Shown: one piece after another, positions 7,707 to 8,177 of the stretch
Numbering within the stretch: position 1 is the stretch's first letter
Layout: the number at the start of each line of letters is the position of its first letter
DNA from: Nevskia sp.
GTDB taxonomy: Bacteria; Pseudomonadota; Gammaproteobacteria; Nevskiales; Nevskiaceae
Assembly (NCBI GenBank): GCA_035651715.1
Contig: DASRFD010000150.1
Location: forward strand, 128,860-192,859
DNA length: 64,000 nucleotides
Reading direction: 5' to 3'
Position numbers and translations under genes: made by a program
Notes under the pieces: generated by a model
Seen by the model: only the letters and a program-made list of their open reading frames with translations
The model's database searches: none
What the model was told of the DNA's origin: nothing

Positions 7707-7826
7707 ATGCTGCCAGCCAACAAGCCAGGGCGCGTTGCTTCACGCGAGATCAATCCGGAACTGCAGTGGGCGCTATGGGCGTTCCTGCTGGGATTTGCCG
7801 TCGGCCTGGGGCTGAAGTTCGTCTAG
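7707..7826 (+). CDS. Small single-TM membrane protein, paralog 3 (39 aa)
   Basis: MLPANKPGRVASREINPELQWALWAFLLGFAVGLGLKFV*. C-terminal half aligns to paralogs 1 and 2 (RE-I-xP-x-x-x-WA-x-x-x-F-x-x-G). GGGGG 3 nt before ATG is a tight SD spacing. Not in the ORF track. Confidence 0.4.
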   Translation: MLPANKPGRVASREINPELQWALWAFLLGFAVGLGLKFV

Positions 7827-7962
7827 GGCCTGTTAACCCCGCCCTGACCACGCTGTGGTAATTATTTCCTAGGCAGCCCTGCCGGCGCCGAAAGTGGTTT
7901 TACAAGCCGCTGATCCGGAATAGAATTTCCTTGGTACTTCGGCGTATGGGCGGAGCACGGCC

Positions 7963-8008
7963 ACCGATCCGCCCGGCACCGTCACTCGGTGCGGATCGGT
8001 CTTTGTTA
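7963..8008 (+). terminator. Rho-independent terminator-like hairpin (ACCGATCCGC-N18-GCGGATCGGT followed by TCTTTGTT)
   Basis: 10-bp perfect inverted repeat followed by a T-rich tract, downstream of the acyl-CoA dehydrogenase and small ORF P3. Confidence 0.45.
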
Positions 8009-8057
8009 ATCTCCTCCGCCGCGCAGGACCTCATTCTCGCCAACGGGACGCTACACC

Positions 8058-8177
8058 ATGCTCACCTATTACGATCACCAGCTGGGCCGTGAACGCATCA
8101 AGCGCCGCTATGCCTGGGCCGCGTGGTCATTCGTCGGCGGGGTCCTGGTGGGCGTTGCCGTCGCCCACGTCTTCTAG
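8058..8177 (+). CDS. Small single-TM membrane protein, paralog 2 (39 aa)
   Basis: MLTYYDHQLGRERIKRRYAWAAWSFVGGVLVGVAVAHVF*. 60% identical to paralog 1 at protein level while nucleotides are diverged, indicating purifying selection. Confidence 0.55.
   Translation: MLTYYDHQLGRERIKRRYAWAAWSFVGGVLVGVAVAHVF

What the first reader, a model, noticed from the sequence alone, without database searches (positions are those of the whole stretch)
7707..8177. Two more paralogs of the small TM protein in tandem (39 aa each) in one 700-bp intergenic region, separated by a terminator
P3 (7707..7826) and P2 (8058..8177) lie on the same strand between the acyl-CoA dehydrogenase gene and the convergent sulfatase gene. 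A clean rho-independent terminator hairpin at 7963-8008 separates them, so each is likely an independent transcription unit. Three copies in 6 kb suggests local duplication, or dosage or partner-specific function.
Basis: seen in the sequence. Interest (0 to 1): 0.6.

Follow-up and report, generated by a model that had tools for sequence, protein, structure and literature searches.

The report
Two conserved tiny membrane-protein genes
The two 39-codon reading frames are real, conserved genes for tiny single-helix membrane proteins of an unnamed family found almost only in Nevskia and its relatives; their function is unknown, and the hairpin between them is not a conserved terminator.

Summary
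Both ORFs exist exactly as described: P3 at 7707-7826 and P2 at 8058-8177, on the + strand between an acyl-CoA dehydrogenase gene and a convergent sulfatase gene. They are genuine genes. Length, start and stop are conserved in 11 independent Nevskia loci, substitutions fall mainly at third codon positions, and dN/dS is 0.12-0.37.

P2 and P1 (2764-2886) belong to an unannotated family of about 40 residues, with at least 75 clusters at 50% identity. Named members come from Nevskia, Solimonas, Stagnimonas and Abyssibacter. The consensus is MxLTYYDxxxGRxRxKRRYxWAxWAFxxGxxxG. AlphaFold2 (pLDDT 92) predicts an N-terminal beta-hairpin followed by one long helix.

P3 is a divergent, Nevskia-only offshoot. 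It lacks the hairpin motif and has a nearly invariant helix. A P2-type gene follows it in every locus that extends far enough.

The three copies are ancient syntenic paralogues, not a recent duplication.

The hairpin at 7963-8000 is real (-24.5 kcal/mol). However, it lies downstream of a good sigma-70-like promoter (7899-7926), and the closest relatives do not conserve it.

Function is unknown. Binding a larger membrane protein through the helix is the most likely role. A type I toxin role is not supported.

The parts
7567..7606 (+). Intrinsic terminator of the upstream acyl-CoA dehydrogenase gene: a GC stem followed by 9 U. It isolates P3 from that gene.
   Evidence: Fold (dG -18.3). The stem and T run are also present in L013.
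7606..7706 (+). P3 upstream region and 5' leader. Conserved blocks are TTGGCGTAACCTAG (7606-7619), GATACGAACGGGT, a GC hairpin at 7652-7677, AGCCCCGCAGGGA, and a GGGGGG Shine-Dalgarno-like run at 7698-7703. The promoter was not identified.
   Evidence: Three-way alignment with L013 and L020. A hairpin sits at the same position, with a different sequence, in six lineages. A GGGGGAG-type ribosome-binding site is conserved.
7707..7826 (+). P3: a 39-aa small membrane protein of the P3-type subfamily (consensus MKPAKPRRxxARVIDPExQWALWAFLLGFAVGLGLKF). The N-terminus is disordered and basic. The helix spans residues 17-38.
7847..7872 (+). Short hairpin ACCAC-GCU-GUGGU followed by AAUUAUUUCC, a weak terminator-like site just after P3. 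It overlaps the invariant motif GTGGTAA..CTAG (7855-7872).
   Evidence: Terminator scan. The fold is weak (z +0.3). The motif is invariant in 9 loci.
7899..7926 (+). Sigma-70-like promoter TTTACA-16 nt-TAGAAT (10 of 12 matches). It lies upstream of the hairpin and of P2.
   Evidence: 1 found against 0.2 expected in shuffles. Aligned positions in relatives are promoter-like in some (L022: TTGCCA-17-TTGAAT) and weak in L013.
7963..8008 (+). The tail overlaps the invariant motif TTTGYTA (8002-8008).
   Evidence: dG -24.5, z -2.6. The hairpin is absent or weak in L013, L020, L005, L022 and L024, and strong in L021. TTTGYTA lies 147-151 nt from GTGGTAA in the 8 loci where both were matched.
8045..8048 (+). 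GGGA, a weak Shine-Dalgarno-like site 9 nt before the P2 start codon.
   Evidence: Read. Orthologues carry AGGA or AGGGA at the same place.
8058..8177 (+). P2: a 39-aa small membrane protein of the YYD-type. A beta-hairpin (residues 3-14) is followed by the basic KRRY segment and a helix with a G28xxxG32 motif (residues 16-38).
2764..2886 (+). P1: the third paralogue, 40 aa, YYD-type. It lies outside the finding, between an S53 peptidase gene (-) and a DJ-1/PfpI gene (+).

Best explanation
P3 and P2 are two separate, translated genes. Each encodes a roughly 39-residue inner-membrane protein anchored by a single C-terminal helix, with the basic N-terminus in the cytoplasm and essentially no periplasmic tail.

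They belong to an undescribed family centred on the order Nevskiales. P2, like P1, is the canonical type. It has a conserved cytoplasmic beta-hairpin (TYYD...GRxR), a KRRY juxtamembrane patch, and a WAxWAFxxGxxxG helix. P3 is an old tandem duplicate found only in Nevskia. It lost the hairpin and kept an almost invariant helix. The P3-P2 pair has been kept side by side ever since.

Inferred mechanism, not shown: like the characterised bacterial small membrane proteins, they act by docking through the small-residue (GxxxG) face of the helix onto a larger membrane protein, or onto each other. The basic hairpin of the YYD-type would contact a cytoplasmic surface or anionic lipid, and binding would tune the partner's activity or stability.

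Each gene most likely has its own promoter. The hairpin at 7963-8000 is a lineage-specific element inside or at the end of a short transcript started at 7899-7926. It could be an attenuator or leaky terminator ahead of P2. It is not a conserved P3 terminator.
For: Coding status (shown):
- Orthologues have identical length, start and stop in N. soli DSM 19509, an N. soli MAG and seven metagenomic loci.
- Differences concentrate at third codon positions. dN/dS is 0.12-0.39, and 0.37 for P2 and 0.16 for P3 against the closest relative.
- Purine-rich ribosome-binding sites are conserved.
- GC content follows the coding pattern, with position 2 lowest and position 3 highest.
- Independent gene callers called both ORFs.

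Family (shown):
- 75 cluster representatives at E<=1e-3, almost all 38-45 aa.
- 109 proteins in the larger collection, all 'hypothetical' and none with a Pfam domain.
- The motif alignment is A7.

P3 relationship (shown): hhalign gives E 2.2e-10. The P3-type is followed by a P2-type gene in all 11 loci that extend far enough.

Fold and topology (predicted):
- AlphaFold2 on P2 gives pLDDT 92, with strands at 3-6 and 11-14 and a helix at 16-38.
- AlphaFold2 on P3 gives pLDDT 78, with a helix at 17-38 and a low-confidence N-terminus.
- The most hydrophobic 19-residue window is the last 19 residues of each protein. The N-flank net charge is +3 or +4 for P2 and P1 and +1 for P3.

Ancient paralogy (shown): the order DJ-1, LysR, APH, ACAD, P3, P2, sulfatase is conserved, and P1 is also syntenic.

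Mechanism by analogy: the review PMC12648545 describes MgtS, MgtR, KdpF, AcrZ and MgrB acting by direct binding to larger membrane proteins.

Transcription signals.
Against: No partner is identified. Genomic neighbours of family members differ from locus to locus: cysS, a Crp-like regulator, a DegP-like protease, an SH3_3 protein, a response regulator and DJ-1. Context therefore gives no functional lead.

No expression, localisation or topology data exist.

dN is 5-8 times higher than in the flanking enzymes, so constraint is modest.

GxxxG-like motifs are common in transmembrane helices and do not prove a specific interaction.

The promoter call is a consensus match only, and it is weak in the nearest relative.
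Confidence: 0.6

Rival explanations
1. P1, P2 and P3 are type I toxin-antitoxin toxins. These are small hydrophobic peptides that damage the membrane when made and are kept silent by a small antisense or nearby RNA. The RNA between P3 and P2 (promoter 7899-7926 to hairpin 8008, about 75 nt) would be the antitoxin.
For: The peptides are small, hydrophobic and multi-copy, sit in tandem in intergenic DNA, and have a promoter-plus-terminator-like unit next to them. Type I toxins are usually small membrane proteins (PMC12648545).
Against: No sigma-70-like promoter was found on the antisense strand across 7450-8350.

The putative 78-nt RNA has no more complementarity to the P1, P3 or P2 mRNAs than shuffled sequence (z -0.2, +0.2 and -1.4), and no stretch of 9 nt or more against a start region. 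That RNA's hairpin and sequence are not conserved.

The genes are stably syntenic chromosomal genes under purifying selection across species and genera. They are absent from plasmid, phage and viral collections.

The conserved part in the YYD-type is a structured cytoplasmic hairpin, which suggests specific recognition rather than bulk membrane damage.
Confidence: 0.1
2. The ORFs are cis-acting leader peptides (upstream ORFs). On this view, the act of translating them or inserting them into the membrane controls the gene downstream, and the peptide itself has no function.
For: Many family members lie 80-150 nt upstream of a co-oriented gene: cysS in three lineages, a Crp-like gene, a DegP-like gene, an SH3_3 gene, and DJ-1 after P1.
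Against: P2 has no co-oriented downstream gene in any Nevskia locus; the next gene is the convergent sulfatase.

The same peptide motif is conserved across paralogues placed in front of unrelated genes. That points to a function of the peptide itself.

Some copies carry their own terminator directly downstream, for example L012 and the P2 orthologue of L005 (read from sequence).
Confidence: 0.05
3. The hairpin at 7963-8008 is, the Rho-independent terminator of the P3 transcript. P2 then starts from an unrecognised promoter in the 50 nt that remain before it.
For: The hairpin is stable and is followed by a U-rich tail. A strong hairpin plus U tract sits at the aligned position in L021, with moderate ones in L006 and L026. 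The U-rich TTTGYTA motif is invariant.
Against: Only 49 nt separate the tail from the P2 start codon. No promoter-like site was found there, whereas a 10-of-12 sigma-70 match lies upstream of the hairpin.

The hairpin is lost in the two closest relatives and in three long-type loci, although P3 and P2 are intact there.

A separate small hairpin with a T-rich tail lies 20 nt after the P3 stop.

The TTTGYTA motif continues into a conserved downstream block in long-type loci. Its conservation therefore need not reflect a terminator tail.
Confidence: 0.25
4. The ORFs are chance open frames in GC-rich intergenic DNA, and the conserved feature is non-coding.
For: In a 70% GC genome spurious ORFs are abundant: 501 ORFs of at least 25 aa in 64 kb. 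Pairwise similarity between P3 and P2 is weak.
Against: Between the window and N. soli, only the ORFs are conserved within the 700-bp gap. Substitutions show codon periodicity and dN/dS is well below 1. Lengths are exact at 38-40 aa across dozens of lineages. AlphaFold2 confidence from the family alignment is high.
Confidence: 0.02

Closest known systems
Characterised bacterial small membrane-protein modulators: MgtS, MgtR, KdpF, AcrZ, MgrB (reviewed in PMC12648545)
   Same: They are 50 aa or fewer and have one transmembrane helix. They are stand-alone genes, often restricted to a lineage and missed by annotation. They act by binding a larger membrane protein. This is the working model adopted here.
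   Different: There is no sequence relationship: no hit in Pfam, NCBIfam or PDB sequence searches. No partner is known. The helix ends at the C-terminus and is preceded by a conserved, predicted beta-hairpin. None of the named examples is known to me to have this layout (my own knowledge).
Type I toxin-antitoxin toxins (TisB, Hok, Ldr, Ibs, ShoB, Zor and others)
   Same: They are small hydrophobic peptides, often multi-copy or tandem, in intergenic regions.
   Different: No antisense or complementary RNA was found. The genes are syntenic and selected across genera. They are not on mobile elements. The conserved motif is a polar N-terminal domain.
C-tail-anchored inner-membrane proteins ElaB, YqjD and YgaM (DUF883)
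   Same: The topology is the same: a cytoplasmic N-terminal part and a single helix at the extreme C-terminus with small or glycine residues.
   Different: Those proteins are about 100 aa with a long helical cytoplasmic domain (my own knowledge). The only trace of similarity is one of 66 family members matching DUF883_C at E = 2, which is noise.
DUF1127 arginine-rich small proteins (bind the sensor kinase PhoR; PMC12648545)
   Same: They are 40-55 aa, arginine-rich and present as several paralogues per genome, with a function that depends on the distribution of positive charge.
   Different: DUF1127 proteins have no transmembrane helix and no sequence similarity to this family.
Sec61-beta, a tail-anchored translocon subunit
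   Same: It has a short cytoplasmic basic segment followed by a C-terminal helix. P1 gave a sub-threshold match to the NCBIfam model (E 0.14, 11.9 bits against a cut-off of 55).
   Different: The score is far below the cut-off. P2 and P3 gave no match. Bacteria use SecG or SecE rather than Sec61-beta. This is a resemblance of topology only.

Membership tests
YYD-type small membrane protein family (defined here, alignment A7) | 38-45 aa with the N-terminal motif [LI]xYYDxxxGRxRxK[RP]RY | tested here: met
   P2 (and P1) carry Y4, Y5, D6, G10, R11, R13, K15, R17 and Y18. P2 scores 77 bits on the family HMM. P3 does not carry this motif.
YYD-type small membrane protein family (defined here, alignment A7) | C-terminal helix WAxWAFxxGxxxG that ends at the C-terminus | tested here: met
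   The motif is present in P1, P2 and P3 in the same register. The profile-profile match covers exactly this part. Helices are predicted at 16-38 for P2 and 17-38 for P3.
P3-type subfamily (alignment A6/A11) | Basic proline-rich N-terminus (KPxKPRR), I(D/N)P(E/D), then the invariant QWA[LM]WAFLxG[FI]AxGLxL. The gene lies directly upstream of a YYD-type gene, between the ACAD and sulfatase genes. | tested here: met
   Window P3 is 46-82% identical to the 13 other members. The tandem arrangement holds in 11 of 11 loci that extend far enough.
Type I toxin-antitoxin system | A small RNA antitoxin, antisense or encoded nearby, that base-pairs with the toxin mRNA | tested here: not met
   No antisense sigma-70-like promoter was found. 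The only candidate neighbouring RNA (7933-8010) pairs no better than shuffles with the P1, P2 or P3 mRNAs, and it is not conserved. This is a computational test only; an RNA with an unrecognised promoter cannot be excluded.
Type I toxin-antitoxin system | The peptide is toxic when expressed | not testable with these tools
   This needs induced expression in cells.
Type I toxin-antitoxin system | A small hydrophobic membrane peptide | tested here: met
   Mean hydropathy of the last 19 residues is 1.8-2.25. A helix is predicted.
Rho-independent terminator (for the hairpin at 7963-8008) | A GC-rich stem-loop immediately followed by a run of U | tested here: inconclusive
   The stem is good (dG -24.5, z -2.6). 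The tail UCUUUGUU has only 5 U in 8 and is interrupted. The consensus scan did not call it.
Rho-independent terminator (for the hairpin at 7963-8008) | Lies at the 3' end of the P3 transcription unit, before the next promoter, and is kept in relatives | tested here: not met
   The best promoter-like site (7899-7926) is upstream of it. The hairpin is lost in L013, L020, L005, L022 and L024.
Small membrane-protein modulators of larger membrane proteins (functional class; MgtS, AcrZ, KdpF, MgrB) | Direct binding to, and modulation of, a defined larger membrane protein | not testable with these tools
   No conserved neighbour suggests a partner.
Any curated protein family (Pfam, NCBIfam, PHROGs, PADLOC) or solved structure | A significant profile or structure match | tested here: not met
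   There were no hits above noise for P1, P2 or P3. Scanning the 66 members one by one gave only scattered sub-threshold transmembrane matches. The PDB profile search gave a best E of 0.4. Foldseek against PDB gave a best E of 5.

The most novel reading that the evidence does not exclude
The conserved P3-P2 tandem could be a two-part membrane module. An invariant-helix subunit (P3) would pair with a hairpin-bearing subunit (P2). The YYD/GRxR beta-hairpin would then be a new membrane-tethered recognition motif, for example for a cytoplasmic domain, the ribosome or a nucleic acid.

The module would be expressed under an unrecognised control region, marked by two invariant motifs held 147-151 nt apart. 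In N. soli-type lineages this would include a candidate structured RNA of about 170 nt ahead of P2.
Probability: 0.12. Interest if true: 0.6.

Novelty: new member of a known kind. Interest (0 to 1): 0.35.

Why it matters
Small single-helix proteins are under-annotated, and only a few dozen have known partners. This finding adds a well-defined family: at least 75 clusters at 50% identity, a sharp sequence motif and a confident predicted fold. It occurs in a poorly studied gammaproteobacterial order and has two diverged subtypes locked in tandem, which makes it a tractable case for partner hunting. A cultured strain, Nevskia soli DSM 19509, carries all three genes.

It does not overturn anything. 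It also corrects the regulatory reading of the hairpin between the genes.

Tried and rejected
1. Known families. Pfam, NCBIfam, PHROGs and PADLOC were scanned with the three peptides, and Pfam with all 66 family members. Only noise came back.

2. Structure. A PDB profile search and Foldseek of the P2 model against PDB gave nothing significant. A 39-residue hairpin-plus-helix is too small for a meaningful fold search.

3. Mobile elements. tblastn against plasmids and phages, and a pattern scan of viral contigs, found no relatives.

4. Known RNAs. Rfam at gathering threshold on the window found only a tRNA. Permissive searches on 7540-8280 and on eight related loci found only noise.

5. A hidden ORF between P3 and P2. 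Six-frame peptides of nine spacers were compared all against all. Matches occurred in all frames among the N. soli-type loci, which reflects plain DNA conservation. None linked the window-type loci to them.

6. A conserved RNA structure between the GTGGTAA and TTTGYTA motifs. RNAalifold predicted 0 pairs.

7. An sRNA antitoxin. Duplex energies were compared with shuffles, and nothing stood out.

8. A conserved functional neighbour across the family. Nine contexts were inspected with no common partner. The only recurrent arrangement is aminopeptidase-like gene, small gene, cysS, seen in Solimonas and a marine lineage.

9. The P3 promoter. No sigma-70, sigma-54, sigma-32 or sigma-E consensus could be fitted by eye to the conserved upstream blocks. 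This is left open.

10. One P2 dN/dS comparison with L020 was out of register by one codon and is disregarded.
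Full report
**Observation.** The window is 70% GC.

- P3 (7707-7826) and P2 (8058-8177) are ATG-initiated 39-codon ORFs on the + strand.
- Their translations are MLPANKPGRVASREINPELQWALWAFLLGFAVGLGLKFV (P3) and MLTYYDHQLGRERIKRRYAWAAWSFVGGVLVGVAVAHVF (P2).
- They lie in the 712-bp gap between an acyl-CoA dehydrogenase gene (stop at 7554) and the convergent sulfatase gene (8267-10033, minus strand).
- The Pfam assignments come from L003, a near-identical public contig on which an independent gene caller also called both 39-aa genes.
- The 'copy 1' the finding refers to is P1, 2764-2886, MAIRYYDHTLGRERIKPRYKWAMSAFAIGIVCGVVFAHVI.
- P2 and P1 are clearly related: 59% identity over 37 aa, E 1.6e-12.
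- P3 and P2 are only weakly similar pairwise: 29% over 31 aa, E about 0.03.
- An HMM scan of all six frames finds exactly these three copies in the 64 kb.

**Are they genes?** Yes.

- A tblastn and ORF survey of related loci shows orthologues of each of the three, with the same length (39-40 aa), an ATG at the same place and a stop at the same place. These are in Nevskia soli DSM 19509 (L005), an N. soli MAG (L006), a closer metagenomic relative (L013) and six further metagenomic loci.
- Between the window and N. soli, the ORFs are the only parts of the 700-bp gap that still align at the DNA level.
- Differences concentrate at third codon positions. Nei-Gojobori dN/dS is 0.12-0.39 for all pairs whose synonymous divergence was not saturated.
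- Against the closest relative L013, dN/dS is 0.37 for P2 and 0.16 for P3, compared with 0.10 and 0.08 for the flanking dehydrogenase and sulfatase.
- dN in the small genes is 5-8 times higher than in those enzymes, so the small genes are constrained but evolve faster.
- GC by codon position follows the coding pattern, for example 0.68/0.42/0.82 for P2.
- Purine-rich ribosome-binding sites precede each start. GGGGGAG-like sequences before P3 are conserved across lineages.

**The family.**

- P1 alone retrieved only five called proteins.
- A degenerate-pattern scan of one genome per species found relatives only in Nevskia and Solimonas.
- A profile search without a word index found 75 cluster representatives at 50% identity (E<=1e-3), almost all 38-45 aa.
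- A profile search of the 5.8-billion-protein collection listed 109 proteins. All are 'hypothetical' and none has a Pfam domain.
- Where a source names the organism, it is Nevskia, Solimonas soli, S. terrae, S. fluminis, Stagnimonas aquatica, Abyssibacter or an unclassified Pseudomonadota MAG.
- NCBI places the first three genera in Nevskiaceae (Nevskiales) and Abyssibacter in Oceanococcaceae.
- The consensus of 66 canonical members is xxLTYYDxxxGRxRxKRRYxWAxWAFxxGxxxG.
- No curated family, defence-system model, phage family, solved structure or PDB fold matches.
- There are no relatives in plasmid, phage or viral collections.

**P3 is a distinct branch.**

- Fourteen P3-type sequences give the consensus MKPAKPRRxxARVIDPExQWALWAFLLGFAVGLGLKF. 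The segment QWA[LM]WAFLxG.A.GL.L is invariant, while the N-terminus varies.
- A profile-profile comparison with the canonical type gives 96.8% probability and E 2.2e-10 over 26 columns: RI....WAxWAFxxGxxxG, in the same register.
- Similarity between transmembrane helices can inflate such scores. However, the identical length, identical register and fixed adjacency make common descent the simplest reading.
- P3-type genes were found only in Nevskia-like loci and always between the dehydrogenase and sulfatase genes.
- A P2-type gene follows on the same strand, 231-520 nt downstream, in all 11 loci that extend far enough. These are the window (identical to L003), L013, two contigs of JGI 3300047160, L005, L006, L020, L021, L022, L024 (same contig as L025) and L026.

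**Predicted structure and topology.**

- AlphaFold2 with the 66-sequence alignment gives P2 a mean pLDDT of 92. It predicts a beta-hairpin (strands 3-6 and 11-14, that is TYYD and RERI) followed by one helix at residues 16-38.
- P3 has a low-confidence N-terminal 16 residues and a confident helix at 17-38, with mean pLDDT 78.
- In all three proteins the most hydrophobic 19-residue window is the last 19 residues.
- The N-terminal flank carries 5-6 Lys/Arg (net +3 to +4) in P2 and P1, and net +1 in P3.
- By the positive-inside rule (established knowledge), this predicts proteins anchored by a C-terminal helix, with the N-terminus in the cytoplasm and practically no periplasmic tail.
- G28xxxG32 forms a small-residue face on the helix.

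**History of the three copies.**

- The gene order DJ-1/PfpI, LysR, APH-like kinase, dehydrogenase, P3, P2, sulfatase is conserved between the window, N. soli and the metagenomic relatives.
- The P1 orthologue sits upstream of the DJ-1 gene in each.
- The duplications therefore predate the divergence of these Nevskia lineages. This is not a recent local duplication or a dosage effect.

**Contexts elsewhere.**

- Other family members are stand-alone genes in unrelated contexts: before a Crp-like gene (L010), an SH3_3 gene (L012), a DegP-like protease gene (Abyssibacter, L017-19) and a response-regulator gene (L027).
- In Solimonas soli, S. terrae and a marine lineage, the gene lies between a PF10023 aminopeptidase-like gene and cysS.
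- No common neighbour points to a partner.

**Transcription signals.**

- The dehydrogenase gene ends in a textbook terminator, a stem plus nine U at 7567-7606, so P3 needs its own promoter.
- The 100 nt before P3 contain blocks conserved in L013 and L020: TTGGCGTAACCTAG, GATACGAACGGGT and AGCCCCGCAGGGA.
- That leader also contains a GC hairpin (7652-7677). Its position, but not its sequence, recurs in six lineages. I could not fit a promoter consensus.
- After P3 there is a weak hairpin plus T-rich tail at 7847-7869.
- The only strong sigma-70-like site in 7450-8350 is TTTACA-16-TAGAAT at 7899-7926 on the + strand (10 of 12 matches; 0.2 expected in shuffles).
It would therefore sit inside a transcript that starts between the genes. 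It could be an attenuator before P2, or the end of an RNA of about 75 nt. It would not simply end the P3 transcript.
- The hairpin is not conserved. It is absent or weak in the two nearest relatives (L013 at z -0.4, and L020) and in L005, L022 and L024. It is strong in L021 and moderate in L006 and L026.
- Only 49 nt remain between the tail and the P2 start codon, with a weak GGGA ribosome-binding site at 8045-8048.

**An unexplained regularity.**

- Two short motifs, GTGGTAA..CTA(G/T) (window 7855-7872) and TTTG(T/C)TA (window 8002-8008), recur across the nine P3-P2 spacers. The exact-pattern search missed TTTGYTA only in L021, which reads TTTGATA in the alignment. They lie 147-151 nt apart in the eight loci where both were matched, even though total spacer length ranges from 231 to 520 nt.
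- The DNA between them barely aligns. It has no consensus RNA structure, no Rfam match and no frame-specific coding signal.
- The promoter-like site sits in the middle.
- I cannot say what this architecture means.

**Mechanism and rivals.**

- Shown: the genes are real, conserved and ancient paralogues, and the family is undescribed.
- Predicted: the fold and the topology.
- Inferred by analogy only: function. The characterised bacterial small membrane proteins (MgtS, MgtR, KdpF, AcrZ, MgrB) act by binding larger membrane proteins (PMC12648545).
- The constraint patterns fit specific contacts rather than bulk membrane effects. P3 has an invariant helix. P2 and P1 have an invariant cytoplasmic hairpin plus a GxxxG face. 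A P3-P2 hetero-pair is possible but untested.
- The main rival is a type I toxin. That needs a complementary small RNA. No antisense promoter was found. The only neighbouring candidate RNA pairs with the three mRNAs no better than shuffles. The genes are stably syntenic and not on mobile elements. I give this rival about 10%.
- A purely cis-acting leader-peptide role is contradicted by P2, which has no co-oriented downstream gene, and by conservation of the peptide motif across unrelated contexts.
- Chance ORFs are excluded.

**Novelty and verdict.**

- This is a previously undescribed sequence family within a well-known class, the bacterial small single-helix membrane proteins. I file it as a new member of a known kind.
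- It would interest people who work on small proteins. It offers a sharp motif, a confident predicted hairpin-plus-helix fold, two subtypes fixed in tandem, and a cultured host carrying all three genes.
- It is not surprising in kind, and its function remains open. Interest: 0.35.

Noticed in passing
window 7855-7872 and 8002-8008 (and the aligned positions in L013, L020, L005, L006, L021, L022, L024, L026): Two short motifs, GTGGTAA..CTA(G/T) and TTTG(T/C)TA, recur across the nine P3-P2 spacers. They lie 147-151 nt apart in the eight loci where both were matched (L021 reads TTTGATA), although the sequence between them is barely alignable and total spacer length varies from 231 to 520 nt. A sigma-70-like promoter sits in the middle. 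No RNA structure, Rfam family or coding frame explains it.
   Followed up: partly
L005 9705-10003, L006 9696-10003, L021 3330-3607, L022 3318-3628, L024 1889-2177, L026 3310-3572 (not present in the window): N. soli-type loci carry an extra conserved block of about 170 nt ahead of the P2 orthologue. It has a predicted multi-stem RNA structure of 46 pairs, with 91% of cells paired against 32-47% when the partners are slid. Six pairs show compensatory changes (7 of 500 shuffles reach this). There is no Rfam match. This is a candidate structured leader or sRNA, based on only six sequences.
   Followed up: partly
window 7652-7677; L013, L020, L005, L006, L022 at the aligned position in the P3 leader: A 10-13-bp GC hairpin lies about 25-45 nt upstream of the P3 start codon in all six lineages folded, with a different stem sequence in each. 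Between L006 and L022, for example, GCCGUG/CACGGC becomes GCCGCG/CGCGGC. Individual z-scores are not significant in this GC-rich DNA.
   Followed up: partly
L011 6001-6210, L029 4001-4219, L014-L016 5001-5211: One orthologue group of the family is fixed between a PF10023 aminopeptidase-like gene and cysS in Solimonas terrae, S. soli and a marine lineage. In S. soli it starts 3 nt after the upstream gene. The 85-nt spacer before cysS contains a conserved GGTATCCTGCGCGGG(T/A)TTTT in L011 and L014.
   Followed up: no
window 2704-2740; L001 5449-5485: P1 is preceded by a conserved TAGAAT -10-like hexamer (window 2704-2709) followed by a conserved small hairpin, GCAAC-N6-GTTGC. Both appear in the window and in the Nevskia MAG L001. 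No -35 match was called by the scan.
   Followed up: no
window 7987-7998 versus L005 about 1727-1738 and L006 about 1240-1251: The 12-mer TCGGTGCGGATC, which forms the 3' arm of the window's P2-leader hairpin, also occurs in the leaders of the N. soli P1 orthologues. It could be chance or a remnant of a duplicated leader (read by eye).
   Followed up: no
window 7707-8177 versus 6265-7554 and 8267-10033: The small genes evolve much faster than their neighbours. Against L013, dN is 0.17 for P2 and 0.12 for P3, compared with 0.02-0.03 for the dehydrogenase and sulfatase. P2 is about 69% identical where the dehydrogenase is 97% identical.
   Followed up: yes
window 21196-21268 (-): A tRNA gene is the only Rfam match at gathering threshold in the 64-kb window.
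   Followed up: no
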